Below are positions 15,468 through 55,390 of a DNA stretch of 64,000 bases, in pieces. The DNA is from Proteobacteria bacterium UBA6503 (lineage in GTDB: Bacteria > Pseudomonadota > Alphaproteobacteria > UBA1280 > UBA6503). The stretch lies in the NCBI GenBank assembly GCA_002436405.1, contig DJLZ01000001.1, positions 782,001-846,000 of the forward strand, in the 5' to 3' direction. Position numbers and translations under genes: made by a program. Each line of letters starts with the position of its first letter. Position 1 is the stretch's first letter. The notes beneath the pieces were generated by a model that saw only the letters and a program-made list of their open reading frames with translations, searched no databases and was not told where the DNA came from.

Positions 15468-15471
15468 CGCA

Positions 15472-17157: not shown

Positions 17158-19175
17158 TGCGCACATTTGTTCTAACAGCTTTAACTTTAAGTGTTTTTGC
17201 AACAGGGCTTCATGCCCTGCCTGAGGTTGCTCATGCTGAAAGCTCACTTGCGAACTTTCGCTCATACCCCCTAGCAAGCCGTGGCTATAACCTAATTGAG
17301 CAGCGCCGTTATGAAGATGCTCGTAAAATGTTTGAGCGTGCCGTACAAATTATGCCCTCAAACATCGACTACCGCTTGCAGCTGGCAAACTTGCTGGTGA
17401 CTGAAAAGCGCTTTGCTAAAGCGCACCAAGTGGTGCTTGAAGGCCTAAAGCTTACACCAAACCACCGTGGTTTGATTGTGCTTGAAGATAATCTACGCAA
17501 AGAACTTGCCGCCCTTGAGGTGAACTTACCTCCATTGCCTGAAGACCCTAACGCCAAGGCACGTTTTATTACGTCGCCGTATACCGAGCGTCAACGTGCT
17601 GTTGTTGAAAGTACAGTGGATGGTCAGCTTGCAGGCTCAAGTTCTGAAAGCTACTGCGAAACATTGCTTACCGATAGCTATAACGACCTCGCCGATAGCG
17701 CTGCCTTAAATGCGGGCTACTGCGCACTAGATGCAAAAGAAAACGCTAAGGCTATTAAACTTTTTGAAAATGCAAGCTACAGCAAAGATAGTGCTATTGC
17801 GGTGCAGGCGTTAAACCAGTTGGGCTTTATTTACACCGATAAAAACCAACACGCTAAAGCCGCCCAATACTGGCGCAAGTCAGTGGCGATGGAGCCGAAC
17901 ACCGGGATTGAGATTAACATTGCCCGTGCGTACCGCCTATCAGGCGAGCTAGAAAAGGCCCATAAGGCCCTTACACCTATTGCTGAGGGTACTGACACTA
18001 CCGCCGAGAATAAAGTGGCTGCAATGCGCGAATTGGCCCTTATGTTTGATGACCAAGACAATACCCCCGAAGCCTATGAAGCAGGCGAAGACATTATTGC
18101 CCTCAAACCTATTGCCTCAGATTATTACTACCAAGCTTTGCGCGCCCAACGTATGGGTGATTATGACCAAGCGCTAGACTACCTAGAGCAGGCCAACCAA
18201 ATGCAGCCCGATACATTTATTTACATGTACAGCCTTGCTTATGCCTACCGAGCCGATGGCCAGTTTGAGAATGCAGCCAACATGTTTGAAAAAGCATTGG
18301 GTAAAGAAGACTCAACCGACCTGCGCCTTGACTATGCCTACAGCCTTAAAGAAATTGGCGAGCGTAAAAAGGCTGCCGAGCAGTTTGTGATTGTGCAAAA
18401 CCAAATTGATGATGTTGAAAAAGAAGACCCTATGCGCCGCGAAGTGCGTGATCTGAACCGTGAATGGACGACTTTCGGCAGCATTAGTTACCGTGATGGT
18501 GTTTACAGCGGTATCGATTCAACAGGTTCGCAGCTTTATGACGATAGCTTCCAGTACGGTATCGAAACTGTATATAGCCCTGAAAAATGGCAGCGTAATG
18601 GCCGCCGTGTTCAGCTTTACGGTCAAATTTTTGCGTCATCTGATAGCAGCACGTTTAACTGGAACCAAGACTCAACCCAAGGGGCTATTGGTGCCCGCGT
18701 TACACCACTGCGAGATACCGAGTGGTACCTTTACATCGCACGTCTTGTGGCACTGGGTGATGATGCTCTAAACGATACGCAACTACGTACGACATTTAGC
18801 AACACCGATGGCTTTGAGTACGAGGCCACCGAAAACGATTGGGAATATAAGTTCTTTAACGTTGATTTGTCATACCTGATTGAAGAAGACCAAATCTTTG
18901 CAACATCTGAAGCCCGCTATGGTCGCTCATACAAACGAGGGACTGACCTTGTGTTGACGCCGCACGTGGTGCTTGCAGGCTCAGTAATTGAAAATGACAT
19001 CCGTGACAGCCAAAACCTTGAGGCAGGCTTAGGTGTGAGTGCTAAGCTTTGGAAAGGGGAAACGGAAACCCAATACCCCGATAAAAGCCTTGAGCTTATT
19101 GTGCAGTGGCGCCAACCCATTAGCAGTGACGATAATAAATCAGGCCCATTTATCCGCCTTGTGGGCCAGTTTTAA
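17157..19175 (+). CDS. nfrA: NfrA-like outer-membrane protein: signal peptide, N-terminal TPR array, C-terminal beta-barrel ending in Phe
   Basis: ATG overlaps the nfrB stop (taATGc). Signal peptide 'MRTFVLTALTLSVFATGLHALPEVAHA'. TPR-like repeats in residues ~40-400. The C-terminal ~270 aa have an alternating hydrophobic pattern ending in '...IRLVGQF'. Confidence 0.7.
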   Translation: MRTFVLTALTLSVFATGLHALPEVAHAESSLANFRSYPLASRGYNLIEQRRYEDARKMFERAVQIMPSNIDYRLQLANLLVTEKRFAKAHQVVLEGLKLTPNHRGLIVLEDNLRKELAALEVNLPPLPEDPNAKARFITSPYTERQRAVVESTVDGQLAGSSSESYCETLLTDSYNDLADSAALNAGYCALDAKENAKAIKLFENASYSKDSAIAVQALNQLGFIYTDKNQHAKAAQYWRKSVAMEPNTGIEINIARAYRLSGELEKAHKALTPIAEGTDTTAENKVAAMRELALMFDDQDNTPEAYEAGEDIIALKPIASDYYYQALRAQRMGDYDQALDYLEQANQMQPDTFIYMYSLAYAYRADGQFENAANMFEKALGKEDSTDLRLDYAYSLKEIGERKKAAEQFVIVQNQIDDVEKEDPMRREVRDLNREWTTFGSISYRDGVYSGIDSTGSQLYDDSFQYGIETVYSPEKWQRNGRRVQLYGQIFASSDSSTFNWNQDSTQGAIGARVTPLRDTEWYLYIARLVALGDDALNDTQLRTTFSNTDGFEYEATENDWEYKFFNVDLSYLIEEDQIFATSEARYGRSYKRGTDLVLTPHVVLAGSVIENDIRDSQNLEAGLGVSAKLWKGETETQYPDKSLELIVQWRQPISSDDNKSGPFIRLVGQF

Positions 19176-19305: not shown

Positions 19306-19659
19306 ATGTTCGACTTCCGTTCGCTTGCCGTGTTTTTCGGCGCTTTCATTGTTTCGATGTTCACTGGTCCCATGCTCGGCGCCATGATCGGCCTCGCCGG
19401 CGTTATCGCCGCTGTTGCCGCCCCCAAGGTGCTGAATGTCATTTCGGCAACGCCGTATGCCCAGTACCTGACCTTCACGTTCTTCGCCGTACTGTTCGCA
19501 CTGACCGGCTCGACCGTGCTGGCCGTTCTCGCCTTCGTCGCGATGGGCCTGGCGCCTGCAGGCATGGGTCTGATCATCGTCGACTTCGCGCTGTTCTTCG
19601 GCTTCTACATCGGCCTGATCAGCTACGTCTTCCCGAAGATGATTCAGCCGAAGCTGTAA
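19306..19659 (+). CDS. Orphan small membrane protein (117 aa, ~3 TM) with anomalously GC-rich codon usage
   Basis: AGGAGA RBS 7 nt upstream of the ATG. Third codon positions are almost all G/C (ctc/gcc/ggc/ttc), whereas flanking genes prefer A/T-ending codons. All six frames are open across it. Terminators lie on both sides. Confidence 0.6.
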   Translation: MFDFRSLAVFFGAFIVSMFTGPMLGAMIGLAGVIAAVAAPKVLNVISATPYAQYLTFTFFAVLFALTGSTVLAVLAFVAMGLAPAGMGLIIVDFALFFGFYIGLISYVFPKMIQPKL

Positions 19660-19674
19660 TCAGCCTTTAACGAA

Positions 19675-19715
19675 TAAAAACACCCCAGCTTTTTGCTGGG
19701 GTGTTTTTTGTTTTT
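19675..19715. terminator. Bidirectional rho-independent terminator
   Basis: aaaa-acaccccagc-ttttt-gctggggtgt-tttttg. Serves the GC-rich gene (+) and the convergent minus-strand operon. Confidence 0.8.
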
Positions 19716-19724
19716 CTAATAGCT

Positions 19725-20126
19725 TTAGTTTTCGATAGCGGGGGGGCCAGGTTGGTTATGGCGCACTTCAAAACTTTCAACCATGCCATCATGCTCAATA
19801 TCAAGATGCAGCGTCAGGGCGTAGGGTAGGCCGTGGTCATAAAGGTCACCCGCTACATCGTGGGCAAAAGCACTGGCTGAAGGCCAGCTTTGGCTAATCA
19901 CATGCTCAAGGTAGGCATTCATGCTTTTGGCCGAGAATGTGTTTTTCTCGGGCTGGTAAATCACATATAAAATTGCGGGGCACTGTGCGCCATCAATATG
20001 GAGTGTACATTCTTTTTCAACGCCAATATCGGTCACAGCACCTTGGCCATGATGCTCTAGCAGGTCGAGCATTTTTTGGCGGTGCTGGCGTTGTTCCGCT
20101 GGGCTAAGTTCTTGTAGGTTAGACAT
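19725..20126 (-). CDS. Hypothetical protein (133 aa), last gene of the flhA-flhF-tag-fliK'-cheR operon
   Basis: ATG at 20126 with a GGAGA RBS, overlapping the cheR stop by 8 nt (the longer ORF to 20237 would lie inside cheR). No recognisable domain. Confidence 0.5.
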   Translation of the reverse strand: MSNLQELSPAEQRQHRQKMLDLLEHHGQGAVTDIGVEKECTLHIDGAQCPAILYVIYQPEKNTFSAKSMNAYLEHVISQSWPSASAFAHDVAGDLYDHGLPYALTLHLDIEHDGMVESFEVRHNQPGPPAIEN

Positions 20127-20994
20127 GTAATTTCTCCGTCCCAGCTGGGGCCTTATGGTAGGCAAAGGCACTGGCCAGTTTGTTATCGGCTTTAAAAATG
20201 TGCTTATAGGCGTATAGGTTTTCTGAGTGGCCAACAATCAAAAGGCTGTCATCGTCCATGGTATCGTAGATATTCCAAAGTACTTGCTCTTTTGACTTAT
20301 CATCAAAGTAAATCAGCACGTTGCGGCAAATCACTACATCAAACTTACCAAGGCGGCGAATCTCAGAAGGTTCTTTTAAGTTTGCAGGCTTAAAGGTGGC
20401 AAACTTTTTGATTTCATCACTGATTTTTGAGGTTTGCTCATCCACTTGCGTAAAGTATTTACTCATCATATCAGCGGGGATGTTACGAATAGCATATTTA
20501 CTATAAACACCGGCTTGTGCATCACGGATAGACTGCTGCGAGATGTCAGTCCCCACAAATTCCCAGTTAATGTCGGTCCAGTTGTTTTTAAGCACCTGCA
20601 AAATGGTGGTGTAAACCTCGTCTCCGGTTGAGCAAGCTGCACTCCAAATACGGATGCGTTTATTCCCTGAAAGGCGCTTGGCGTTTACAAGCGGCGTTAA
20701 AATATCACGCTCAAAGGCGTTCAGCTGCGGCTCATTACGGAAGAAGAAGGTTTCATGGATGGTAATGGCATCTACAAAATGGGGCAGTTCACCGTGGCGC
20801 TGGGGGCCTGAGGTAATGTAGTTGAAATAATCTTGTGCTGAGCTTAACCCTAAAGCTTCACAGCGGCGGCCAACTTTTGAAGCAATAAAGTAGTTTTTAT
20901 TATCTTCAAAGCGAATGCCCGTATGGTCGTAGATAAAATCTACGTACTTTTTAAACAGTTCGGGTTCAACCGAAGGGCGGGCTGTGGCGTCCAT
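20119..20994 (-). CDS. cheR: Chemotaxis protein methyltransferase CheR
   Basis: CheR N-terminal helical domain plus SAM-dependent methyltransferase domain ('DIRIWSAACSTGDEVYT'). Confidence 0.9.
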   Translation of the reverse strand: MDATARPSVEPELFKKYVDFIYDHTGIRFEDNKNYFIASKVGRRCEALGLSSAQDYFNYITSGPQRHGELPHFVDAITIHETFFFRNEPQLNAFERDILTPLVNAKRLSGNKRIRIWSAACSTGDEVYTTILQVLKNNWTDINWEFVGTDISQQSIRDAQAGVYSKYAIRNIPADMMSKYFTQVDEQTSKISDEIKKFATFKPANLKEPSEIRRLGKFDVVICRNVLIYFDDKSKEQVLWNIYDTMDDDSLLIVGHSENLYAYKHIFKADNKLASAFAYHKAPAGTEKLHV

Positions 20995-21003
20995 TATTAT
21001 ATC

Positions 21004-23070
21004 TTAGGCCTCAACGTTTAATTGGTGTTCTGGAGCATCGTCAGTTATTGGGGCCAACATGTCGTGCAGTGGGTCGGTTTCAAAAAAGCTGACTGTTTCA
21101 ATTTGTAGGGTGCCGCGCAAGCCAACGGCTGAAAGGCTGTTTTGAACAAGCTCTTCTAGGCCTTTATGCTCAGCTTCGCTGATACCCTGCGTCATGCGGA
21201 TTTTAATATGCATCACGTCTTTGCCCTGCATTAAGCCATCAAGCTGGATGGGACCAAGCTCACTCATTTTAACATTCAAAACAAAGCGGAGTGAATCACC
21301 ATCGTCTGGGTTTTGCTTTTTGTGCTTACGCCAAAAAAAGCTGCCTTGCTGTAATGTTTGGTTTTGGTCATCAAGGTAGGGGAACATCAGCGCACGCCAA
21401 CCGTCAGGTGCATCTGGCTTTTGATGAAGGTTATTGAGCTGGGCAGCGTCTGACTGCAGCATACCATCAAGGCCAAGGGCACGTAGCATGTTCAGAACGT
21501 CATCACCAAAGAATGAGCGCATGTTTTGCGTTGTAATGCTATGGCTCAGCTGTAAAAGCTTCGGCAATAGTTTTTCATTGGCCTCGGGAAGCACGCTTTT
21601 TAGTTTTTCAGCCCCTTCAGGGTTGCTGTCTTCAAGGTTGCTCATGGCTTGGGCGAGGGTGTCCCATGACAGTGAAAAACGAAGCAGCGCGTTACTGCGG
21701 TCACTGCCCTTAGGCATCACAATATCTAGAATTTCAGCATGGCCATCAGGCATAATATGTACGCTGATATGACTACCCACAGGTAGCATGCGCTGTGCAA
21801 TAACAGGCGTACGTACATCTTTACCAAATTGCAAAATAACTTCACCGCCTGGGCGTTGTTCAACAACGGTACCCGTGGCAATTTGACCCACGCTAAGCTC
21901 AGGTGTTTTGGCAGCAATTGACCCTTGTTGGCTTGACTGTTGTGCCCCTGTTTGCTGGGTTTGGCGGGCAGCAGCATCTTGCTGTGATTGATGCTCAGGG
22001 TTACGGCCTGCAACTGACTGTGGCGCACGAGCGCTTACGGTACTTAGTACCTCAAGCACGCCTGAGTCTGTAAAGCGAATAGCCATTTGTTGTACACCTT
22101 GTGAGTTTGAATTTTGGCCCGAACCTAACGTGCTTTGAAAGCCAAGCTGTTGCAGCGTTTGTTCAGGAATATCAAAGGTTAATAATACCCCATTTTGCAA
22201 CCCGATAGTAACGCTATTTGGTTGGAACTGCTGCACCGTCACAAGCTGTGGGCTTGTGTTACGTAGCAATGCCGTTGGAATAGGGCTTTGCGATTTAAGC
22301 TTTATAGGGGTGGGCAATAGCACGCGCCCTTCGGTGGTAAGTTTACCTGTGCCCTCAATAACCACCTGACGGGGGAATGACCCACGAGTTTCGTTGGTTA
22401 GCTCAGGCGCATCCGAAAGTGTGGCTTGCGGCAGTTGCGGTACGGGCAAGCGCAGCTTATCAATAACGGCTGTTTGGTTTTGGCCAATTTTTAAAACAAC
22501 TTCTGAGTTAACTTCAAACACAGGCGGCAGCAGCAACGTAAGTTGATGCCCGTTGGTAAGGTTCAAGGTTTGGCCACCACTTTGAGGGGGTGTGAGGGTA
22601 CGGCCCATCACGCTCATACCGGGGCTTGGCATAAAGATTGAGTTTTGTGGCCCGCTCATGTTTACACGAGGTGCCGTAAACTGAATGGTTTGTCCTTCTT
22701 TTGCCATAGCGTTTTTCGCAATATCGAGCAGCACTGAGGGCGTGCTTGAAGGGCGGATTTGCGCAGGCTGTTCAGGGGTTTTTGGTAGTAAAACACGCAA
22801 AATCTCTGGTGGTTGGTCGCCTTTCATTTGCAATAAAAGCTGACTGCCCGGAGGAATATTCTCAGGCACGTCAGCGGTAATGATTTGCCCTGATGGTAAC
22901 TGTAGCTGGGCTTGGCCATTGGCTGCTCGTTGTGCCAGAACCTCAACCTTCAATAAGCCTTGGCGGTGCTTAGGCGGGACGTCTTTCGCATTCTGCAATT
23001 GCTCGTTCTGCTTTTCACCACGGTCACGTGGCTCAAGCAAAATCAGCGTGTTCTGTGAGAGCAGTTGCAT
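21004..23070 (-). CDS. Second FliK-family protein: long Q/P/S/T-rich protein with a C-terminal Flg_hook (FliK C-terminal) domain
   Basis: C-terminus 'LRFVLNVKMSELGPIQLDGLMQGKDVMHIKIRMTQGISEAEHKGLEELVQNSLSAVGLRGTLQIETV' follows the FliK C-domain pattern. Compare the canonical fliK at 53651. Confidence 0.6.
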   Translation of the reverse strand: MQLLSQNTLILLEPRDRGEKQNEQLQNAKDVPPKHRQGLLKVEVLAQRAANGQAQLQLPSGQIITADVPENIPPGSQLLLQMKGDQPPEILRVLLPKTPEQPAQIRPSSTPSVLLDIAKNAMAKEGQTIQFTAPRVNMSGPQNSIFMPSPGMSVMGRTLTPPQSGGQTLNLTNGHQLTLLLPPVFEVNSEVVLKIGQNQTAVIDKLRLPVPQLPQATLSDAPELTNETRGSFPRQVVIEGTGKLTTEGRVLLPTPIKLKSQSPIPTALLRNTSPQLVTVQQFQPNSVTIGLQNGVLLTFDIPEQTLQQLGFQSTLGSGQNSNSQGVQQMAIRFTDSGVLEVLSTVSARAPQSVAGRNPEHQSQQDAAARQTQQTGAQQSSQQGSIAAKTPELSVGQIATGTVVEQRPGGEVILQFGKDVRTPVIAQRMLPVGSHISVHIMPDGHAEILDIVMPKGSDRSNALLRFSLSWDTLAQAMSNLEDSNPEGAEKLKSVLPEANEKLLPKLLQLSHSITTQNMRSFFGDDVLNMLRALGLDGMLQSDAAQLNNLHQKPDAPDGWRALMFPYLDDQNQTLQQGSFFWRKHKKQNPDDGDSLRFVLNVKMSELGPIQLDGLMQGKDVMHIKIRMTQGISEAEHKGLEELVQNSLSAVGLRGTLQIETVSFFETDPLHDMLAPITDDAPEHQLNVEA

Positions 23071-23084
23071 AATCAGTTAATACC

Positions 23085-23681
23085 TTACAGGCCGTACTTT
23101 TGGCCTTTAGTTTGTTCAATAATTTCAGTGTAACGCGGGCAGGTGGTTAGATGGTCATTCACCATGCCACTGGCCTGCATGTGGGCATACATAACCGTAG
23201 GGCCTAAAAACTTAAAACCACGTTTTTTAAGGTCCTTACTAATAGCTAATGCAAGATCCGTGACAGCTGGGACATCTGCCATAGTTTTTGGCGCATTATT
23301 TAGAGGTTTATGATCCATAAACTGCCAAAGGTAGGTACTAAAGCGGCCAAATTCTTTCTGCACTTCTAAAAAACGCTGGGCGTTGTTTATGGTTGCATCA
23401 ATTTTAAGGCGGTTCCGCACAATGCCAGCATCGGCCAGTAGGCGCTGTTTATCAGCGTCCGTAAACTGGGCAACTTTTACAGGGTCAAATTGGGCAAAGG
23501 CTTTACGAAAGTTTTCACGCTTTTTAAGGATGGTTAACCAGCTTAAACCAGCTTGAAAAGCCTCAAGGCTTAGAAACTCAAAAAAGCGCTGGTCGTCATC
23601 AACGGGTACGCCCCATTCTTGATGGTGGTATTGCTCATAAATATCATGGCCTACGCACCAAGGGCATACCGCTTTCGTCAT
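23085..23681 (-). CDS. tag: DNA-3-methyladenine glycosylase I
   Basis: Collinear with E. coli Tag ('YHHQEWGVPVDDDQRFFEFLSLEAFQAGLSWLTILKKRENFRKAF...KKRGFKFLGPTVMYAHMQASGMVNDH'). Confidence 0.9.
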   Translation of the reverse strand: MTKAVCPWCVGHDIYEQYHHQEWGVPVDDDQRFFEFLSLEAFQAGLSWLTILKKRENFRKAFAQFDPVKVAQFTDADKQRLLADAGIVRNRLKIDATINNAQRFLEVQKEFGRFSTYLWQFMDHKPLNNAPKTMADVPAVTDLALAISKDLKKRGFKFLGPTVMYAHMQASGMVNDHLTTCPRYTEIIEQTKGQKYGL

Positions 23682-23691
23682 TTAAACAGCC

Positions 23692-24759
23692 TTAGTGGGT
23701 TGTTTCGTCAGTAAGGTCCCATGGTAGGGTTGGGGCCATCAGTAGGCGGCGGCTCATGGTTTTGGCATCAAGCTGCAGCAAGTCTTGTGGTACACGCTGG
23801 CCATCGGTTGCAAAGCAAAGCGGTAGGCCGCTTTCGATGGCGGTATTTACCATGCCACCTAGGAATGATGTTTCATCCATTTTACTAAACAACAGGTGCT
23901 TTGGCTTCAAGGCGCCAAAGGCCTTTGGTAGGGCTGTCATTTCAGCGGCGTTAAGGTTGCTTGGCAGCATGAGGGCTACGGTGGCATCAACCGCGTCTAG
24001 CTGTTTTGCAATATCAGCCATACGTGTGCGCTCGTAAGGGTTTACGCCAGCACTATCAACCAAAATCAGATCGTAGCCTTTAATTTTCTCTAGGGTTTGG
24101 CCAAGGGTTTGGCCGCTCTTTACAACGTGTAGGCTTTCTTTAAGAGCGTCAGCGTAAATATCAAGCTGTTCAACGCCACCAATTTTGTAGGTATCCATAG
24201 TTACCAATGCCACTTTGCGGCCGTGCATACGCTCGGTTACGGCAATTTTAGCAAGGGTTGTGGTTTTGCCTGCACCTGTTGACCCTACAAGTACAAAAGG
24301 TTTGCCTGCTTCAAGCAGTTCACCCGGTGTACGGAAGTTAATCAGTTTGCTAAGCACCATCTCAAGGCCATCTTCTTCCGAGAAGCCAGTTTCCATAAGC
24401 GCCTTAACTGCTTTTTGCAGTTTTTGTGCAATGGCTGAGGTTACGCCGTGGGCCATAAGCTGGTCGGCCAGGGTACCTTCTCCATTGTTAGCAGGCTCAA
24501 GGTCAAAGTCGGCCGTTGTGGTGCCTGTGGCGGTGCGTACTTCTTCAGTGCGTGGGCCTGAAGTGCGGCGGTCTTCTTTAGGGGCATCCGCTTTAGCAGG
24601 GGCAATTTGCTCAATGGCAGCTGTTACTTCAAGCGTAGGCTTGCCGTCGTTCCCCTTAATTTTGCGGGTCGACAGAATTACAGCATCGTCACCCAGCTCG
24701 GCTTTAACCGCTTTAAGGGCTGCACTCATGTTTGGGGCTGTAAAACGCTTCAGTTTCAT
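23692..24759 (-). CDS. flhF: Flagellar biosynthesis SRP-type GTPase FlhF
   Basis: Basic N-domain. GTPase motifs ('GSTGAGKTTTLAKIA', 'DSAG'). Directly downstream of flhA. Confidence 0.88.
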   Translation of the reverse strand: MKLKRFTAPNMSAALKAVKAELGDDAVILSTRKIKGNDGKPTLEVTAAIEQIAPAKADAPKEDRRTSGPRTEEVRTATGTTTADFDLEPANNGEGTLADQLMAHGVTSAIAQKLQKAVKALMETGFSEEDGLEMVLSKLINFRTPGELLEAGKPFVLVGSTGAGKTTTLAKIAVTERMHGRKVALVTMDTYKIGGVEQLDIYADALKESLHVVKSGQTLGQTLEKIKGYDLILVDSAGVNPYERTRMADIAKQLDAVDATVALMLPSNLNAAEMTALPKAFGALKPKHLLFSKMDETSFLGGMVNTAIESGLPLCFATDGQRVPQDLLQLDAKTMSRRLLMAPTLPWDLTDETTH

Positions 24760-24786
24760 AATTTACCAACTTTCTCGTTTAGTCTT

Positions 24787-26859
24787 TTAAACAGTGCCAA
24801 CTGTTTTGATTTTAATTTTGGGGTGTAGCTCTTGCTGACTTAATACAGGGATTGTCGGCATGCTACGTTCTAGCACTGAGCGCACATAAGGGCGGCTGCT
24901 TGGTGCTGTAAGTAGGATAGGCTGGCCACCGGCCGCCATTGTTTTTTCAAACGTGTCTTTTACCGTGCGCAAGAAGTTTTGAACCTTGCTTGGCTCCATT
25001 GCTAGGTGACGGTCTTCACCATCGGCCACCAAAGCGTTTGAGAATTCTTTTTCCCAGCCAGTTGAGAGTGAAATAATCTGCACGTGACCATCATGGCCCA
25101 AGTGTGCCGCTGTAATCTGACGGCTTAGGCGTGCACGCACAAGCTCGGTAATGTGCTGTAGGTTTTTCGTCACCGTAATGGCATCAGCCGATGCTTCAAT
25201 AATTGTAAGCAGGTCACGGATAGACACACGCTCGGCCAGTAGGTTTTGCAATACCTTTTGCAGCAAACCAATGCTGACTTGGTCTGGCACAAGCTCTTGC
25301 GCCACGGCTTTTTGATCTTGCGGTAGTTCTGACAACAGCTTCTGCACTTCTTGGCGTGTCAGTAGCTCTGACAAGTTGTCTTTAATCACTTCTGTTAGGT
25401 GCGTCACAATAACGGTTGAGTTATCAACCACGGTGTAACCGTTGAATGAGGCTTCCTCACGTAGGCGTTCCTGAATCCAGCGGGCAGGTAGGCCAAAGGT
25501 AGGCTCAATTGTTTCTTCACCTTCAATTGGTGGGGCTTGGCCTGTGGCGTCCATCGCTAGCAGCATGCCTGGGCGCAGGTTGCCTTTTGCAACTTCAACA
25601 TCTTTAATGGCAACGCTGTAGCCGCCTGATTCAAGCTGCATGTTATCTTGAATACGGATGCTAGGCACAACAAAGCCAATTTCTTTCGCCAGCTGACGGC
25701 GCATGGCTTTAATTTGTTCAGTCAGGCGACCGCCCTTAGATTCATCAATCAAGCCCAGTAGGCCGTAACCTAGTTGCAAACGAAGGGTATCAATTTGCAA
25801 GATGCTTGATAGAGGCTCTTCGGATGGTTTTTCCTCTTCTTCAGCTTGCTGTTGCTCGGCAATAATTTCGGCCTGTTCTTGCTCAGCCATAACGCTAATA
25901 AGGTAACCGCTACCACCTGCTGCCATGGCCAATAGCCAAAATGGAATCAAAGGAATACCTGGTAGCAAACCGAGTAGAGCCATCATACCTGCAAGCACGT
26001 AAAGCGCTTTAGGGTACTTCGCAAACTGTTTGAATAGCAACGTGCCTGAGGCTTGCGCATGACGTGCTTTTGAAACAAGGAAACCAGCTGAAAGTGAGAT
26101 AATCAGCGCTGGTACCATCGCAACCAGACCATCACCCACTGTCAAAATAATGTAGCGGTCAGCAGCTTCGGCAAAGCCCATATCGTGGATGGTCATACCT
26201 GCGGCAACACCTGCCACAATGTTAATGGCGGTAATAATTAGGCCGGCAATGGCATCACCACGCACAAACTTACTAGCACCATCCATCGCCCCGTAGAAGC
26301 TTGTTTCGTACTCAAGGTCGGTACGGCGGTCACGGGCTTGTTCTTCGTTAATTAGGCCAGCGTTAAGGTCGGCATCGATGGCCATCTGCTTACCCGGGAG
26401 TGAGTCCAAGCTAAAGCGGGCTGCAACTTCAGCAATACGGGTGGCACCCTTTGTGATAACCACAAAGTTAAACACAAGGTAAATGATGAAAATCATGATA
26501 CCGACGAGAAACTCGCCGCTCATGATGATTTGACCAAACGCCTCAATAATCTGACCCGCAGCATCGGTGCTGGCGTGACCGTTGGTCAAAATCAAACGGG
26601 TTGAGGCCACGTTTAGCGCCAAGCGCATCAAGGTGGTCACAAGCAAAATGGTTGGGAATGAGCTAAAGTCCATGGCCTTTTCGGTCATCAAAACGTTAAG
26701 CATTACCAAAATCGCAATGGCGATACTGATGCTGAACATGATGTCGAGGATGGCCGCAGGCAGCGGAATGAACAACAGCGCCACAATAAACATAACACCA
26801 AGCGGTAGTGCAAGTTCACTACGCTTGAGCATGCTGATAATGCGGTCAAACTGGTTCAT
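24787..26859 (-). CDS. flhA: Flagellar export apparatus protein FlhA
   Basis: 690 aa. N-terminal 8-TM domain plus cytoplasmic FlhA-C. 'FIPLPAAILDIMFSISIA' etc. Confidence 0.95.
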   Translation of the reverse strand: MNQFDRIISMLKRSELALPLGVMFIVALLFIPLPAAILDIMFSISIAIAILVMLNVLMTEKAMDFSSFPTILLVTTLMRLALNVASTRLILTNGHASTDAAGQIIEAFGQIIMSGEFLVGIMIFIIYLVFNFVVITKGATRIAEVAARFSLDSLPGKQMAIDADLNAGLINEEQARDRRTDLEYETSFYGAMDGASKFVRGDAIAGLIITAINIVAGVAAGMTIHDMGFAEAADRYIILTVGDGLVAMVPALIISLSAGFLVSKARHAQASGTLLFKQFAKYPKALYVLAGMMALLGLLPGIPLIPFWLLAMAAGGSGYLISVMAEQEQAEIIAEQQQAEEEEKPSEEPLSSILQIDTLRLQLGYGLLGLIDESKGGRLTEQIKAMRRQLAKEIGFVVPSIRIQDNMQLESGGYSVAIKDVEVAKGNLRPGMLLAMDATGQAPPIEGEETIEPTFGLPARWIQERLREEASFNGYTVVDNSTVIVTHLTEVIKDNLSELLTRQEVQKLLSELPQDQKAVAQELVPDQVSIGLLQKVLQNLLAERVSIRDLLTIIEASADAITVTKNLQHITELVRARLSRQITAAHLGHDGHVQIISLSTGWEKEFSNALVADGEDRHLAMEPSKVQNFLRTVKDTFEKTMAAGGQPILLTAPSSRPYVRSVLERSMPTIPVLSQQELHPKIKIKTVGTV

Positions 26860-27065
26860 TGTTTAGGGTTTCTCTGCTCTTTAGCTGTTTTAAAATCTTC
26901 TGTGGCGGGTAAAACGATACACGCCTCCAACTTCAGTATAGATTCTTGCAGAGGTGGGGGCGAGCAGAAGCCCCACAAAGTGTGGTATTCAGGGCTATGG
27001 GTGTGGCTTAATTACACGCTTTTTGCGTGGTAATCTTTTGGTCGGGGAGAGGGGGTATTGCTAAG

Positions 27066-28511
27066 TTATTTAGCAGCTTGCTGTTTTGGCGAATCATCAA
27101 ACGCCTGAAGCTTATCACGCAGCACTTTAATTGAAATACCAAGCATGTTAGCTGCTTGGTTACGGTTACCACCGCAGTAGTCCAGCGTACCCAGAATAAG
27201 CTCTTTTTCAACTTCGTGCATTTGGCGGCCAATCATGCCCCCAGTATTTGTAATGCCGCCTTGTTGGTAGCCGCCTTGTGCCGCCGCATAAGCGCCTGTG
27301 GCACCCATGTTTGGGTTAGGGGCTTGCTGTTGTGGGGTTTGTTGTGCAGCTTCTGCCGGTGCTTCAACTTCAGCAGGTGCATTCGCCTCGGCCGCTTCAC
27401 GGCTCATGGCTGAAATTTCAATGTTTTCGGCTTTAAGTTCTTCACCTGTCATCAGCAAAATAGCACGGTGGAGGGTGTTCTCAAGCTCGCGCACGTTACC
27501 TTTCCAGTAGGCTGAGGTCAGCTTTTCTTTGGCATCATCAGCAATGGTAATGCGAGGTAGCTCGTATTGCTCAGCAAATTTTTGGGCAAAGTGTTCACTT
27601 AGGGCCAAAATATCGGCAGGGCGTTCACGTAGGGCTGGTAGCTCGATAGCGGCTACGTTCAGACGGAAGTATAAATCCTCACGGAAGTTCCCTTCACGGA
27701 CGTGATCTTCAAGGTTACGGTTGGTGGTGGCCACCAAACGAATATCAACAGGCACGGGCTTTGTTGCACCCACAGGGTCAATCACACGTTCCTGAATAGC
27801 ACGGAGTAGTTTTGCCTGTAGTGACAAATCCATCTCTGAAATCTCATCAAGCAATAGCGTGCCGCCATCAGCTTGCTGGAACTTACCTAGGCGTTTGTTT
27901 ACAGCACCTGAAAAAGCACCTTTTTCGTGGCCAAAAAGCTCACTCTCAAGAAGGTTTTCAGGGATAGCTGCACAGTTAACGCTAATAAACGGGGCATTTT
28001 TACGTGGGCTGTTATCGTGAATAAAGCGGCTTAGCACCTCTTTACCCGTACCAGACTCACCACGCAGCAGAACAGTTGCGTTTGACGCTGCAAACTTTTT
28101 AGCAAGGGCTAGCATAGCAGTGGTTTTGTCATCACGTGCAATTGGGCCGCCTTGGTTTGGGTTATCTGCAAGTTCGTCAAGAAGTTCGCCAAGTTGTTTT
28201 TCATCGATAGGGGTGGTGAGGTATTCAATTGCGCCTAGACGGATTGACATCACGGCGTTTTGCACGCTATCAGCGCCACCAACACTTACGACAGGTGTAT
28301 TAAGGCGTGCTTCGTTGTAAGCCCCAAAGAAGTCTGTTTGTTCAAGGTCGGCGCTTAAAAAGGCCATGTCTACACGTTGTTGGCACAGAACTTCAACAGC
28401 AGAGGTAATGTCCTTTGCCGTCAGCACGTCCATCTTCAGCTTTTTGGCATACTTCGCCACAGCGCCTGAAGCGCCAGCAAGATCACCAATAAGAAGAATT
28501 TGTGCAGTCAT
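27066..28511 (-). CDS. flbD: Sigma-54-dependent flagellar transcriptional activator (FlbD/FleQ family)
   Basis: FleQ-like N-domain. AAA+ sigma-54 interaction domain ('GESGTGKE', GAFTGA-type 'GHEKGAFSGA'). C-terminal Fis-type HTH. Confidence 0.9.
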   Translation of the reverse strand: MTAQILLIGDLAGASGAVAKYAKKLKMDVLTAKDITSAVEVLCQQRVDMAFLSADLEQTDFFGAYNEARLNTPVVSVGGADSVQNAVMSIRLGAIEYLTTPIDEKQLGELLDELADNPNQGGPIARDDKTTAMLALAKKFAASNATVLLRGESGTGKEVLSRFIHDNSPRKNAPFISVNCAAIPENLLESELFGHEKGAFSGAVNKRLGKFQQADGGTLLLDEISEMDLSLQAKLLRAIQERVIDPVGATKPVPVDIRLVATTNRNLEDHVREGNFREDLYFRLNVAAIELPALRERPADILALSEHFAQKFAEQYELPRITIADDAKEKLTSAYWKGNVRELENTLHRAILLMTGEELKAENIEISAMSREAAEANAPAEVEAPAEAAQQTPQQQAPNPNMGATGAYAAAQGGYQQGGITNTGGMIGRQMHEVEKELILGTLDYCGGNRNQAANMLGISIKVLRDKLQAFDDSPKQQAAK

Positions 28512-28521
28512 TAATCGTCCC

Positions 28522-29292
28522 TTAGTTAAATACGTTTACGCGGCCTGCTGGTGGCAAAATAGCATTCAGCATAACTTCAAGCTGGCGTGGGTTTTCTTGC
28601 TTAGCAACCGATTGTACAGTGGTTGCGTAAATACGGCGTAGCTCAACTTCAGCGCGGCTGTTTTTTTCCATTTTCGAGGCTAGTGGTGTAAACACCATGT
28701 TTGCCAAAATCGCACCGTAAAGGGTGGTCAAAAGGGCAACCGCCATCGCAGGGCCAATAGCTGATGGGTCAGACAGATTCCCCAACATTTGTACCAGACC
28801 AATCAACGTACCAATCAGACCCATAGCAGGGGCAAGCTCAGCACTGCGGCGCAGGATTGAAATTGTGCGTTCGTGGCGTTCCATCATGCTTTCGGTGTCG
28901 TCTTCCATAATGGTGGCAACAGCTTCTGGGTTAACGCCGTCAATGGCCAGCATTAGGCCTTGCTGAACGTAAGTATCGTTCAAGGCGTCAATATCGGCTT
29001 GGATGTTCAAAATACCGTTCACACGGGCTTTTTGTGCAAGCTCAACCATGCTTTTTGCTTCTTCTGAGGCATTAGGTAGTTTGAAAACCAACATACGGGC
29101 CACAATACCTTGGGCGCGCATAATTTCAGGGATTGTAAAGCTTACAGTCGTGATGGCAAATGTACCGCCGATAACAATCAAGATTGATGGCGGGTTAATA
29201 AAGCCAGCAACGTCGCCGCCCAATGCAATTGCAATGGCAACGAAAACAAAGCCAATCAGCAGGCCAAAGATGGTTGCTAGGTCTAAGTTCAA
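28522..29292 (-). CDS. motA: Flagellar stator protein MotA/PomA
   Basis: 256 aa, 4 TM. 'AMGLIGTLIGLVQMLGNL' MotA/TolQ/ExbB signature. Confidence 0.88.
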   Translation of the reverse strand: MNLDLATIFGLLIGFVFVAIAIALGGDVAGFINPPSILIVIGGTFAITTVSFTIPEIMRAQGIVARMLVFKLPNASEEAKSMVELAQKARVNGILNIQADIDALNDTYVQQGLMLAIDGVNPEAVATIMEDDTESMMERHERTISILRRSAELAPAMGLIGTLIGLVQMLGNLSDPSAIGPAMAVALLTTLYGAILANMVFTPLASKMEKNSRAEVELRRIYATTVQSVAKQENPRQLEVMLNAILPPAGRVNVFN

Positions 29293-29329
29293 AGCTCTAC
29301 CCTTTTATTCTTTTTATATGTGGGGTGGG

Positions 29330-29692
29330 TTACTTAACTGATTTAACAATCTCGGTCATGGTTACGCCGAGTTTGTCTTCGTCAGTAATAACAACTTCAC
29401 CACGGGCAACCAAACGGTCGTTTACGTAGATGTCGATGGCTTCACCAATTTTACGGTCAAGTTGAACCACAGCACCACGGCCTAGTTTTAGAAGTTTGTT
29501 AATTTCCATTTGGGTTTCACCCAATACAGCGCTTACACGCACTGGAATATCGTAAACGGCTTCAAGGCCAGCATCGCTTGAGGCTTCTGCTGCCGGAGTG
29601 CTTTTGGCAACGTCGGCTACGTCAAGTTCGTCAAGGCTAAGACCCTTCTTCTCAGGGGCTTCAGTGGCTTCTGTTTTTGGCGTATCTGTCAT
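29330..29692 (-). CDS. fliN: Flagellar motor switch protein FliN
   Basis: SpoA domain ('VRVSAVLGETQMEINKLLKLGRGAVVQLDRKIGEAIDIYVNDRLVARGEVV'). Confidence 0.92.
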   Translation of the reverse strand: MTDTPKTEATEAPEKKGLSLDELDVADVAKSTPAAEASSDAGLEAVYDIPVRVSAVLGETQMEINKLLKLGRGAVVQLDRKIGEAIDIYVNDRLVARGEVVITDEDKLGVTMTEIVKSVK

Positions 29693-53650: not shown

Positions 53651-55390
53651 ATGATGATACCTGATCTTTCGCAACTTCTTTCATTCTCACCATCAGCCAC
53701 AGGTTTTGGTGGTCTTTTTGGTGCTCAAACAGCTAGCCAAGGCGGCGGTTTGTTTGGTGGACTTATGGGTGAGGGTGTCTCAGGCGAAGGGAGTTTGTTT
53801 GGTAACGTCCTCAGCAGTATGCTGGGTGAAAGCGGTCTTGTAGAAACCCTTTCGGCTGCGGAAGAGCTTAACCTAGAAGAGCTCGAAAACTCAGAAGAAG
53901 CTGAACTTGCTATTATTCAGGTGACACAAGTTGTGACCGTCGTTTACGAAGAATTTACAATGCTATCGTCATCAGGGGTAAACTTTGATGACCTTAATAG
54001 CGTTGATTCGTTGTCAGCTGCGTACCAACAACTTGGTATGTCACAAGAAGAAGCTGATAGCCGTGCCACACGCCTAACCGTTATGTTTATGCTGCTTGAT
54101 AACCGTATTTCAACGGCTGATCTTGTAGCGGGTCTAAGCACCGATCAAATCGCTGTAAAACAACAGCGTACATTTATTCAAATTGAACAATCAATCCAAG
54201 CGTTTTCAGTGGCGAGCGTAGGCTCATCTGGACAGTTGTCATCACTATTGGCGGAAGGCCAAAGCCTGATGAATGGTGGCCTTTCAGATGCTGAGCTTCA
54301 AGCGGCCCTTGCTGGTGCAGGCGAAGTACAGTCAGACGCTGACCTAGCCTTGGCATCAACCGATGGCGAAAACCCACTCGAAGGCAACTTGTTTGGCCGT
54401 GTAAGTGAGATTTTTAATAAACTAGCCGACCGTGCAAGCCAGCACCCAGAAGGTAAACAACTTGCAGCTCAATTGCAGGAGATTGCCCAAGCGACGCAAA
54501 ATATTTCAGACAAAGTGGTGAAAGATGGCGGTTTGCAAAATGTGCAAAAAGCCCTTGAAACACCAACTTTGCAAAGTAATTCGCAGCAAGCGGTACAGGC
54601 GCAAATCGCCGAAGATCGCCCACTGCCATCAGCAAAAGCTGAACGTGAAATTCAAGCCAATGCCCGTGCGCAAGAGGTTGCTGCAGATGAAGCAAACCTT
54701 GGTAAAGGTGCCGGCGATAAACCAGCTGATGCTGCACGTAATAATACAGCTATGGTTGGTAACGGTCGCCCACAAGCACTGCCTGAACCACCTGTGCCAA
54801 CATTTGTTATGCGCCCAACGGCCGATGGTGGCGTTGAAGTGGTTGACCCTGCAACAGGTGAAGTTATTCAAAGTAGTCAAGGTAACCTAGCAAACGCATC
54901 AAATACGCAAGCGGCTGATGGCCCAATGGCGCAAAGCCGTGGTCTAGAAACTGCACAACAAGTACGCCTTGCCCAGCAAGTGCGTGTGCATGTGCGTACC
55001 CTTGCGGCACACAACGGCGGCCAGATTGTCGTGAACCTTAACCCTAAAGAACTTGGCCGCGTGCAAGTGCGCCTTGAGATTGAAGAGGGTGTTGTGAAAG
55101 GGGCTATTACAGTTCAGCGCCCTGACGTTGCAGAATCTATCGCAAAAGACATGCGTGCCCTTGAGCAAGCCCTTGCCGATGTTGGCCTAGAGTTGGCCCA
55201 AGATGGTATTGCGATTCAGCTTGAGAACCACTCAGCTGGTGACAGTAATAGCCAGGATTCTGAAGGGAAACGACAAACTGGCACAGGTTTTGCAAATACA
55301 TCTAGTGAGGCTCTATCAGGGGCTGTGGACGGCGAAGAGAGTGCCGGCCGCTGGATGAACCCTGACCGTCTTCTAGACGTTGAAGCCTAA
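53651..55390 (+). CDS. fliK: Flagellar hook-length control protein FliK
   Basis: C-terminal Flg_hook domain ('VRVHVRTLAAHNGGQIVVNLNPKELGRVQVRLEIEEGVVKGAITVQRPDVAESIAKDMRALEQALADVGLEL'). Upstream of flgD-flgE. Confidence 0.85.
   Translation: MMIPDLSQLLSFSPSATGFGGLFGAQTASQGGGLFGGLMGEGVSGEGSLFGNVLSSMLGESGLVETLSAAEELNLEELENSEEAELAIIQVTQVVTVVYEEFTMLSSSGVNFDDLNSVDSLSAAYQQLGMSQEEADSRATRLTVMFMLLDNRISTADLVAGLSTDQIAVKQQRTFIQIEQSIQAFSVASVGSSGQLSSLLAEGQSLMNGGLSDAELQAALAGAGEVQSDADLALASTDGENPLEGNLFGRVSEIFNKLADRASQHPEGKQLAAQLQEIAQATQNISDKVVKDGGLQNVQKALETPTLQSNSQQAVQAQIAEDRPLPSAKAEREIQANARAQEVAADEANLGKGAGDKPADAARNNTAMVGNGRPQALPEPPVPTFVMRPTADGGVEVVDPATGEVIQSSQGNLANASNTQAADGPMAQSRGLETAQQVRLAQQVRVHVRTLAAHNGGQIVVNLNPKELGRVQVRLEIEEGVVKGAITVQRPDVAESIAKDMRALEQALADVGLELAQDGIAIQLENHSAGDSNSQDSEGKRQTGTGFANTSSEALSGAVDGEESAGRWMNPDRLLDVEA

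What the first reader, a model, noticed from the sequence alone, without database searches (positions are those of the whole stretch)
20119..26859. DNA-repair glycosylase tag embedded in the flhA-flhF operon where flhG is expected
On the minus strand, flhA, flhF, tag, a FliK-like gene, cheR and a 133 aa ORF are separated by 9-27 nt or overlap, so they are almost certainly one transcript. In polar-flagellate bacteria the MinD-like ATPase flhG (fleN) normally follows flhF and restricts flagellar number. Here a bona fide 3-methyladenine glycosylase I occupies that slot and no MinD/ParA-like ORF exists in the window. That leaves FlhF apparently without its antagonist in cis, and flagellar assembly co-expressed with a base-excision repair enzyme.
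Basis: partly seen in the sequence, partly recalled or inferred. Interest (0 to 1): 0.55.

Follow-up and report, generated by a model that had tools for sequence, protein, structure and literature searches.

The report
Flagellar operon that lost flhG
In this uncultured marine bacterium the DNA-repair gene tag is a long-standing passenger of a flagellar/chemotaxis operon with its own slot, and what is unusual is that the flagellar-number regulator flhG, which sits between flhF and tag in all sister lineages, has been cleanly deleted while flhF is kept intact.

Summary
On the minus strand flhA, flhF, tag, a 688-aa gene (X), cheR and a 133-aa gene (Y) are separated by 27, 10, 14 and 9 nt, with an 8-nt cheR/Y overlap. 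A strong bidirectional terminator follows Y. Tag is a bona fide 3-methyladenine glycosylase I. No MinD/ParA-type gene lies in the 64 kb.

In four related lineages the order is flhF-flhG-tag-X-cheR-Y, so tag follows flhG and does not replace it. More distant relatives have flhF-flhG-X without tag. The window's subclade (three sequenced lineages, FlhF at least 78% identical) has lost flhG precisely.

FlhF and Tag stay under purifying selection there (dN/dS about 0.06-0.13, dS above 1). A search of 5.8 billion proteins found no relocated flhG orthologue. Every close FlhG whose context I read lies directly downstream of an flhF from another lineage.

X is not the FliK of this flagellum. A Pfam-positive fliK sits at 53651-55390. 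The modelled C-terminal domain of X weakly resembles a FliK/YscP-type switch domain.

FlhF without FlhG has precedents (Bacillus cereus, Rhodospirillum rubrum). A glycosylase conserved inside a flagellar operon appears unreported, but is most simply a transcriptional hitch-hiker. Moderate-to-low interest.

The parts
24787..26859 (-). flhA (flagellar export gate, 690 aa). It is preceded by a 206-nt spacer after the flbD-like sigma-54 activator gene (27066-28511).
   Evidence: PF00771 E 2e-250; TIGR01398 870 bits
23692..24759 (-). flhF (SRP-type GTPase, 355 aa), intact and under purifying selection
   Evidence: TIGR03499 181.2 bits against a cut-off of 174.15. Best PDB hit is B. subtilis FlhF 2px0, E 3e-30. 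The G1-G5 regions are identical in all five sequences assigned to the flhG-less group. dN/dS is 0.06-0.12.
23682..23691 (-). 10-nt flhF-tag spacer: the site from which flhG (255-267 aa in relatives) is missing
   Evidence: Relatives L018, L019, L024 and L032 carry a ParA/CbiA-type FlhG with SGKGGVGKT exactly here. L021 and L023 share the deletion. No FlhG remnant was found by tblastn.
23085..23681 (-). tag (DNA-3-methyladenine glycosylase I, 198 aa)
   Evidence: PF03352 E 1e-79; TIGR00624 245 bits. E. coli TAG 1lmz E 1e-56, with zinc-snap residues C6/H19/H177/C181 and pocket residues Y18/E40/W48 aligned to E. coli C4/H17/H175/C179 and Y16/E38/W46.
21004..23070 (-). X: clade-restricted 688-aa protein. 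It has several small beta domains joined by P/Q-rich linkers, a helical region, and a conserved C-terminal beta/alpha domain.
   Evidence: No Pfam or NCBIfam hit. Only 12 homologues in 5.8 billion proteins. It follows flhG or tag in every relative. AF2 models have pLDDT 59 and 63. The C-terminal domain matches the PscP T3S4 domain 5cuk with prob 1.0, TM 0.52, E 0.019.
20119..20994 (-). cheR (chemoreceptor methyltransferase, 291 aa)
   Evidence: PF03705 plus PF01739, E 2e-50
19725..20126 (-). Y: 133-aa QueF-like (T-fold) protein, last gene of the operon. Its start overlaps the cheR stop by 8 nt.
   Evidence: 3 of 7 family members hit PF14489 QueF (best E 1.6e-6). The family profile against PDB gives QueF 4fgc as best hit, E 0.029. 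The position of the QueF catalytic Cys is not conserved in the family alignment.
19676..19708 (.). Bidirectional intrinsic terminator (14-bp stem flanked by A and T runs) that closes the operon
53651..55390 (+). The canonical fliK of this flagellar system (579 aa), next to flgD and flgE
   Evidence: PF02120 Flg_hook recorded for this gene, followed by FlgD and FlgE domains

Best explanation
The window carries the flagellar/chemotaxis operon (fliF-fliG-fliH-fliN-motA-flbD)-flhA-flhF-tag-X-cheR-Y of an uncultured marine proteobacterium. NCBI labels the MAG 'Magnetococcales bacterium', GCA_002707865.1.

Inferred history:
1. The ancestral order in its clade was flhA-flhF-flhG-X-cheR-Y.
2. A normal tag gene was inserted between flhG and X long ago. 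It has stayed there because it has no room for signals of its own and depends on read-through transcription and translational coupling.
3. Later, in the common ancestor of the window's subclade, flhG was deleted cleanly, bringing flhF and tag together.

Shown: the gene orders, the monophyly of the flhG-less group, the integrity and purifying selection of FlhF and Tag, and the lack of any detectable flhG orthologue.

Inferred:
- Tag still works as a housekeeping base-excision enzyme, expressed at the low level of a class II flagellar operon.
- FlhF still recruits flagellar assembly but is no longer restrained by FlhG. The lineage therefore either makes more than one flagellum per pole (the usual phenotype of flhG/fleN mutants) or controls number by another factor.
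For: Gene order and family assignments in the window.

flhG and tag present together, in the order flhF-flhG-tag-X-cheR-Y:
- L018 (FlhF 64-66% identical to the window)
- L032 (60%)
- L019 (49%)
- L024/L025 (41%)

flhG followed directly by X, without tag: L020, L028 and L031.

flhG missing, flhF abutting tag: the window, L021 (83-84%) and L023 (78-81%).

Phylogeny: in a neighbour-joining tree of the FlhF G domain, the flhG-less sequences form one group, sister to L018 and nested among flhG+ lineages.

Selection since the loss: FlhF dN/dS 0.06-0.12 and Tag 0.115-0.13 with dS above 1. The G1-G5 regions are identical in the flhG-less group, and only 3 group-specific substitutions were found.

Search for a relocated flhG: L018's FlhG was searched against 5.8 billion proteins.
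- Many hits sit on contigs whose length matches that of an flhF contig from another lineage, among them P0122 and P0124-P0127.
- The context of P0143, P0123 and P0128 was read directly, and each lies immediately downstream of a non-window flhF.
- The window species is represented in that collection by contigs up to 1.12 Mb.

Tight coupling of tag in the relatives: flhG-tag spacing runs from -11 to +12 nt.

Tag zinc-snap and pocket residues are conserved.
Against: - The complete genome of the window organism could not be scanned. A divergent MinD/ParA-type protein taking over FlhG's role cannot be excluded. Nor can a relocated flhG that the word-based search missed.
- For most close FlhG hits, the link to another lineage's flhF rests only on matching contig lengths.
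- No expression data exist, so co-transcription is inferred from spacing alone. Internal promoters inside flhF are known for Pseudomonas putida (abstract of PMC6424431, listed) and cannot be ruled out.
- Tag is patchy in the clade: absent in L020, L028 and L031. That needs either several losses or several insertions at the same junction, which is not explained.
- The flagellation phenotype is unknown, because these are uncultured MAGs.
Confidence: 0.75

Rival explanations
1. One reading: tag has taken the place of flhG, either as a functional substitute or through a replacement event. The pairing of flhF with a repair enzyme would then be the meaningful novelty.
For: In the window, tag lies exactly where flhG is expected, 10 nt after flhF. 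The review PMC12826062 states that flhG is consistently encoded directly downstream of flhF.
Against: Four related lineages have both genes side by side, as flhF-flhG-tag. Tag predates the loss of flhG and keeps every catalytic and zinc-binding residue of a normal glycosylase. It has no P-loop or any feature of a MinD-type ATPase.
Confidence: 0.03
2. flhG has not been lost but moved. An orthologue, or a MinD/ParA paralogue acting as FlhG, is encoded elsewhere in the genome, and FlhF is regulated normally.
For: Only 64 kb of a genome of more than 1 Mb was examined. In relative L009, flhF and flhG are separated by about 7 kb holding six solute-binding-protein genes, so the pair can be split in this broad group. 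MinD can take over flagellar regulatory functions in E. coli (PMC12826062).
Against: No FlhG-like protein attributable to this lineage was found among the close homologues of the nearest relative's FlhG in a 5.8-billion-protein collection. That collection holds the species' Mb-scale contigs. The three close hits whose neighbourhood was read all lie immediately downstream of a different flhF.
Confidence: 0.12
3. Tag is kept in the operon for a functional reason and is not just a passenger. One possibility is that base-excision repair is timed with the cell-cycle window in which early flagellar genes are expressed. Another is a link to the SAM-using CheR in the same transcript, since SAM is a weak non-enzymatic source of 3-methyladenine.
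For: The position of tag between flhG and X is kept across lineages whose FlhF is only 41% identical. Tag is under purifying selection there. A second purine-fold protein (QueF-like Y) closes the same operon.
Against: Tag is missing from that position in L020, L028 and L031 with no other change to the operon, so the flagellar genes do not need it. The tight packing alone explains why an inserted promoterless gene stays put. Titles and abstracts from a search for such a link showed nothing relevant.
Confidence: 0.1

Closest known systems
The flhA-flhF-flhG(fleN) operons of polar flagellates (Pseudomonas, Vibrio, Shewanella, Campylobacter)
   Same: flhA is followed by flhF in one tightly packed unit next to chemotaxis genes. 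FlhF is an SRP-type GTPase with a B-N-G layout and conserved G motifs.
   Different: - No flhG follows flhF.
- No fliA follows flhF. Instead come tag, a clade-specific protein X, cheR and a QueF-like gene.
- FlhF motif II reads DTYK rather than DTYR across the whole clade.
- FlhG of the relatives has a short N-terminus with a (T/N)QL(D/N) motif in place of the DQAxxLR activator motif. That motif is described in bioRxiv 10.1101/2022.03.19.484964 (listed).
Known FlhF-without-FlhG cases: Bacillus cereus (no FlhG homologue) and Rhodospirillum rubrum (no flhG organised with flhF)
   Same: flhF is retained and presumed functional without an adjacent flhG (PMC7218170; PMC7064773).
   Different: Here the loss can be dated against sister lineages that still carry flhG in an otherwise identical operon. 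That gives a clean natural before/after comparison. The organisms are uncultured marine bacteria.
E. coli / Salmonella TAG (constitutive 3-methyladenine DNA glycosylase I; PDB 1lmz, 2ofi)
   Same: Full-length alignment at E 1e-56. The zinc-snap Cys/His residues and the 3mA pocket residues are conserved.
   Different: Genomic context only: it is embedded, with no promoter space of its own, in a flagellar/chemotaxis operon.
FliK / YscP / PscP ruler proteins with a C-terminal T3S4 switch domain (for protein X)
   Same: A long, P/Q-rich, multi-domain protein with a conserved C-terminal beta/alpha domain. The best compact structural match of the modelled domain is the PscP SS domain, with prob 1.0 and TM 0.52 over 68 columns.
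   Different: No significant sequence or profile similarity to Flg_hook or to the window's own FliK. The Foldseek E-value of 0.019 falls short of the tool's 0.001 level, and the model's pLDDT is 63. A canonical FliK already exists in the same cluster.

Membership tests
DNA-3-methyladenine glycosylase I (Tag; PF03352 / TIGR00624) | Full-length match to the family model above the curated cut-off | tested here: met
   PF03352 267 bits (cut-off 25), positions 1-176 of 177. TIGR00624 245.3 bits (cut-off 232.5).
DNA-3-methyladenine glycosylase I (Tag; PF03352 / TIGR00624) | Zinc-snap ligands (E. coli C4, H17, H175, C179) and 3mA pocket residues (Y16, E38, W46) | tested here: met
   These align to window C6, H19, H177, C181 and Y18, E40, W48 in the phmmer alignment to 1lmz. 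The residue roles are from my own knowledge of the TAG structures.
DNA-3-methyladenine glycosylase I (Tag; PF03352 / TIGR00624) | Excision of 3-methyladenine from DNA | not testable with these tools
   Needs an enzyme assay.
FlhF (SRP-type flagellar GTPase; TIGR03499) | Match above the curated cut-off, and best solved relative is FlhF rather than Ffh or FtsY | tested here: met
   181.2 bits against 174.15. 2px0 FlhF E 3e-30 against FtsY/Ffh at 1e-13 or weaker.
FlhF (SRP-type flagellar GTPase; TIGR03499) | Conserved G1-G5 GTPase motifs | tested here: met
   GSTGAGKTT, DTYKIGG (K where B. subtilis and the second solved FlhF, 8r9r, have R), DSAG, SKMDET and DGQRVPQD. The K is clade-wide, flhG+ members included.
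FlhF/FlhG pair | A MinD-type ATPase gene (flhG) directly downstream of flhF | tested here: not met
   tag starts 10 nt after flhF. There is no deviant Walker A, no tblastn hit and no HMM hit in the 64 kb. No orthologue attributable to the lineage turned up in the protein collection.
FliK (hook-length control; PF02120 Flg_hook), for protein X | Sequence or profile match to the Flg_hook/T3S4 domain | tested here: not met
   0 of 6 members pass. The best is E 0.11 in one member. hhalign against the window's FliK gives probability 0.5%.
FliK (hook-length control; PF02120 Flg_hook), for protein X | T3S4-type fold of the C-terminal domain | tested here: inconclusive
   The AF2 model has pLDDT 63. 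Foldseek hit 5cuk (PscP SS domain): prob 1.00, TMt 0.52, rmsd 2.9 A, E 0.019. No hit reached E <= 0.001.
CheR (PF03705 + PF01739) | Both CheR domains above the cut-offs | tested here: met
   171.7 and 45.7 bits, cut-off 27 for each.
QueF (PF14489), for protein Y | Family match and a conserved catalytic cysteine | tested here: inconclusive
   3 of 7 members match (best E 1.6e-6), but the window protein itself does not. The Cys position is not conserved in the family alignment. This suggests a T-fold relative, not a preQ0 reductase.

The most novel reading that the evidence does not exclude
The module flhF-(flhG)-tag-X-cheR-Y may be a functional unit, with the base-binding proteins Tag and QueF-like Y, and/or the FliK/YscP-like X, taking part in flagellar placement, number control or chemotaxis signalling. 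The subclade could then dispense with FlhG because one of these proteins restrains FlhF. That would be a new way of controlling flagellar number.
Probability: 0.07. Interest if true: 0.7.

Novelty: new variant of a known kind. Interest (0 to 1): 0.38.

Why it matters
A recent review describes FlhF and FlhG as a conserved two-part switch whose genes are "consistently encoded together" (PMC12826062). This clade offers a natural experiment. Sister lineages have the same operon with and without flhG, and flhF remains under strong purifying selection after the loss.

If representatives can be cultured or imaged, comparing flagellar number and position between the two groups would show what FlhF does on its own. 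It would also show what, if anything, replaces FlhG.

The conserved tag inside the operon is a useful caution for guilt-by-association annotation. A housekeeping repair gene can stay locked in a flagellar transcript over deep divergence without any demonstrated functional link.

X and Y are two uncharacterised, clade-specific members of a flagellar/chemotaxis operon that merit study.

Tried and rejected
1. The genome-contig scan with an FlhF alignment was swamped by P-loop patterns. It gave only one relevant locus (L009), so organism names and whole-genome context could not be obtained that way.
2. The metagenome-contig scan with the X alignment gave only 5 loci, which were useful for L025, L027, L028 and L029.
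3. Sigma-54 (TGGCAC-N5-TTGC-like) and CtrA (TTAA-N7-TTAA) motif searches on the minus strand of 19600-29400 found nothing apart from one CtrA half-site inside tag. No promoter assignment was made.
4. An Rfam scan of the whole window found no family at gathering score.
5. The full-length AF2 model of X (pLDDT 59) gave no meaningful PDB match. Only the isolated C-terminal domain gave the weak PscP hit.
6. I looked for FlhF residues that changed specifically in the flhG-less group. Only V264M, S334T and E348D turned up, all conservative, so no functional shift can be claimed.
7. I considered whether the clade's FlhG lacks the activator helix. It lacks DQAxxLR but has a conserved N-terminal (T/N)QL(D/N) motif, so no conclusion was drawn.
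8. An assembly artefact was rejected because many independent assemblies and two further species share the junction.
Full report
**1. What is in the sequence**

The minus strand of 19725-26859 carries six tightly packed genes.

| Gene | Coordinates | Evidence |
|---|---|---|
| flhA | 24787-26859 | FHIPEP E 2e-250; TIGR01398 above cut-off |
| flhF | 23692-24759 | SRP54 G domain; TIGR03499 181.2 bits vs cut-off 174.15; best solved relative B. subtilis FlhF 2px0, E 3e-30 |
| tag | 23085-23681 | PF03352 E 1e-79; TIGR00624 above cut-off |
| X | 21004-23070 | 688 aa; no Pfam or NCBIfam hit |
| cheR | 20119-20994 | CheR_N plus CheR |
| Y | 19725-20126 | 133 aa; no Pfam hit for the window protein |

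- The spacers are 27, 10, 14 and 9 nt, and cheR and Y overlap by 8 nt.
- Each start codon is preceded by a short purine-rich ribosome-binding site that partly overlaps the previous stop codon.
- The only convincing terminator is a 14-bp-stem bidirectional hairpin at 19676-19708, immediately after Y.
- Promoter-like hexamer pairs are not enriched (7 found against 10.7 +/- 3.6 in shuffles).
- Upstream, fliF-fliG-fliH-fliN-motA and a flbD-like sigma-54 activator gene lie on the same strand. A 206-nt gap precedes flhA.

The window as a whole is a large flagellar/chemotaxis island. It holds fliI and fliJ, flagellin genes, fliD, fliS, fliL, fliM, cheY, cheZ, cheB, cheA, motB, fliP, fliK, flgD and flgE.

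**2. Is Tag genuine, and is there really no flhG here?**

Tag aligns end to end with E. coli TAG (1lmz, E 1e-56). The four zinc-snap ligands and the Tyr/Glu/Trp residues of the 3-methyladenine pocket are in place.

Three independent tests found no MinD/ParA-type gene in the 64 kb:
- a six-frame search for the deviant Walker A motif;
- tblastn with four relatives' FlhG, best E 0.017;
- an FlhG HMM against every ORF of at least 60 aa.

The exact FlhF sequence is carried on 21 independently assembled contigs from NCBI, TARA/ENA and Logan. All six places shown have flhF followed by tag, so the junction is not an assembly error. NCBI names the MAG 'Magnetococcales bacterium': GCA_002707865.1, FlhF MBA44779.1, Tag MBA44778.1. 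The nearest FlhF hit that carries a Magnetococcales label, other than the window's own cluster, is only 33% identical. I therefore treat the name as provisional.

**3. The comparison with relatives changes the picture**

FlhF belongs to a distinct clade of about 40 sequences, almost all from metagenomes or MAGs, 34-99% identical to the window. I read the neighbourhoods of representatives.

| Arrangement | Loci (FlhF identity to window) |
|---|---|
| flhF-flhG-tag-X-cheR-Y | L018 (64-66%), L032 (60%), L019 (49%), L024/L025 (41%) |
| flhF-flhG-X, no tag | L020, L028, L031 |
| flhF-tag-X, no flhG | window, L021 (83-84%), L023 (78-81%) |

- In the first group, FlhG is a 255-267-aa ParA/CbiA-type ATPase with SGKGGVGKT.
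- In that group, tag either overlaps flhG or starts within 12 nt of it.
- The third group has an 8-10-nt spacer, or in L023 only 2 nt.
- In a neighbour-joining tree of the FlhF G domain, the flhG-less sequences form one group. It is sister to L018 and nested among flhG+ lineages.

The simplest history is an ancestral flhF-flhG-X-cheR-Y. An old insertion of tag between flhG and X followed, and later a single clean deletion of flhG in the window's subclade. Tag therefore does not occupy the flhG slot. It sits in its own slot, and the slot in front of it has been emptied.

**4. Has flhG moved elsewhere?**

I could not scan the whole genome. As a substitute, I searched the FlhG of the closest flhG+ relative (L018) against 5.8 billion proteins. 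That collection holds this species' contigs up to 1.12 Mb.

- The clade's FlhGs are 54-67% identical to the query, so an orthologue from the window lineage should rank near the top.
- Many of the close hits, among them P0122 and P0124-P0127, sit on contigs whose length matches that of an flhF contig from another lineage. This link is indirect.
- P0123 and P0128 had no such counterpart, and P0143 comes from a species with Mb-scale contigs. I read all three directly. Each lies immediately downstream of a non-window flhF: L030 and L031, whose FlhF C-terminal parts are 67% and 54% identical to the window's, and L024.

This is good but not conclusive evidence that the lineage has no orthologous flhG. 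A MinD or ParA paralogue acting in its place cannot be excluded.

**5. State of FlhF and Tag after the loss**

Between flhG-less lineages, synonymous sites are saturated (dS 1.0-1.9). dN/dS is 0.06-0.12 for flhF and 0.115-0.13 for tag, comparable to cheR at 0.12.

All five GTPase motif regions of FlhF are identical in the five sequences assigned to the flhG-less group. Only three conservative group-specific substitutions were found. FlhF is therefore kept functional without its usual antagonist.

A clade-wide peculiarity, present in flhG+ members too, is Lys in place of the motif II Arg (DTYK). FlhG of the relatives has a short N-terminus with a conserved (T/N)QL(D/N) motif in place of the DQAxxLR activator motif. 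I draw no functional conclusion from this.

**6. The other two genes**

*X.* X has only 12 detectable homologues, all in this clade. It always follows flhG or tag.
- It gives no significant match to Flg_hook (E 0.11 in 1 of 6 members) or to the window's own FliK (hhalign probability 0.5%).
- That FliK carries PF02120 and lies at 53651-55390, beside flgD and flgE.
- AF2 models are of modest confidence (pLDDT 59 and 63). They show several small beta domains, a helical region and a C-terminal beta/alpha domain.
- The best compact structural match of that last domain is the substrate-specificity-switch domain of the injectisome ruler PscP: 5cuk, prob 1.0, TM 0.52, E 0.019.

*Y.* Y is a fast-evolving QueF-like T-fold protein. 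Three of seven family members hit PF14489. The catalytic cysteine is not conserved.

**7. How it most likely works**

*Shown.* One compact unit from flhA, or from fliF, to Y, closed by a strong terminator. Tag has no room for signals of its own. flhG is deleted in a monophyletic subclade. FlhF and Tag are conserved.

*Inferred.*
- Tag is expressed by read-through and translational coupling as an ordinary housekeeping glycosylase. It stays in place because it depends on the operon's promoter.
- Without FlhG, FlhF-driven assembly is less restrained. These bacteria would then either carry several flagella per pole, as flhG/fleN mutants of polar flagellates do, or use another number-control factor.

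FlhF without FlhG is not unprecedented. B. cereus has no FlhG homologue (PMC7218170). Rhodospirillum rubrum lacks an flhG organised with flhF (PMC7064773). A recent review nonetheless stresses that the two genes are 'consistently encoded together' (PMC12826062). A search for papers linking tag to flagellar operons returned no relevant titles or abstracts.

**8. Verdict**

The interesting part is not a repair enzyme replacing FlhG. It is a datable natural loss of flhG, with sister lineages that keep it in an otherwise identical operon, together with an anciently embedded tag and two uncharacterised operon members. I rate it a new variant of a known kind, of moderate-to-low interest (0.38).

Noticed in passing
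window 14364-19175 (+): This stretch holds a UDP-GlcNAc 2-epimerase, a 561-aa family-2 glycosyltransferase and a 672-aa TPR/NfrA_C outer-membrane protein (PF13283 E 6e-24). It looks like an NfrAB-type exopolysaccharide export module. It sits in the flagellar cluster between Y and fliJ-fliI, and is absent from that position in L018, L019, L020 and L032. The C-terminus of the glycosyltransferase (RLGELLIERRLITQHALAQALKKQ) resembles an MshEN-type c-di-GMP-binding motif; that comparison is from memory and was not tested.
   Followed up: partly
window 19725-20126 (-) and its homologues in L018-L027: The last gene of the operon (Y) belongs to a fast-evolving family. Three of seven members hit Pfam QueF (best E 1.6e-6), and the family profile's best PDB hit is QueF 4fgc (E 0.029). 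The QueF catalytic Cys is not conserved. This is a T-fold protein of unknown role that always follows cheR.
   Followed up: partly
window 21004-23070 (-): The modelled C-terminal domain of protein X (residues about 558-658) has the PscP substrate-specificity-switch domain (5cuk) as its best compact PDB match: prob 1.0, TM 0.52, E 0.019. X may therefore be a second ruler/switch-like protein beside the canonical FliK at 53651-55390.
   Followed up: partly
L009 3419-12285: In a distant relative (alphaproteobacterial MAG JBAQUW010000198, FlhF 36% identical), flhF and flhG are separated by about 7 kb. That stretch contains six tandem paralogous ORFs of about 285-290 aa; the two I scanned match SBP_bac_3 (solute-binding proteins). 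This is another exception to 'flhG directly downstream of flhF'.
   Followed up: partly
window 47333-48019 (+): A 228-aa ORF between cheA and motB carries only a MotB_plug motif (E 2e-5) and no OmpA domain. It lies directly upstream of a full motB (48022-48732) and could be a truncated or specialised second stator B subunit.
   Followed up: no
FlhF alignment A1 (window FlhF residues about 189-193 and 235-240): The whole FlhF clade, flhG+ members included, has Lys in place of the motif II Arg (DTYK against DTYR in B. subtilis FlhF and in the second solved FlhF, 8r9r). Motif III is D[TSC][APM]Gx[NS], without the Arg seen in B. subtilis (DTAGR).
   Followed up: partly
L019 10355-10633: One relative has an extra 92-aa ORF between tag and X, with a weak Cdd1 hit (E 0.003). 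The flhG-to-X interval therefore seems to be a recurrent insertion point.
   Followed up: no
L024 / L025 (1.78-Mb contig Ga0233446_1000001): In this lineage, flhF-flhG-tag-X-cheR-Y is detached from flhA. Housekeeping genes (a 16S rRNA methyltransferase-like gene, a pseudouridine synthase and others) precede flhF instead. The six-gene module can therefore move as a unit.
   Followed up: no
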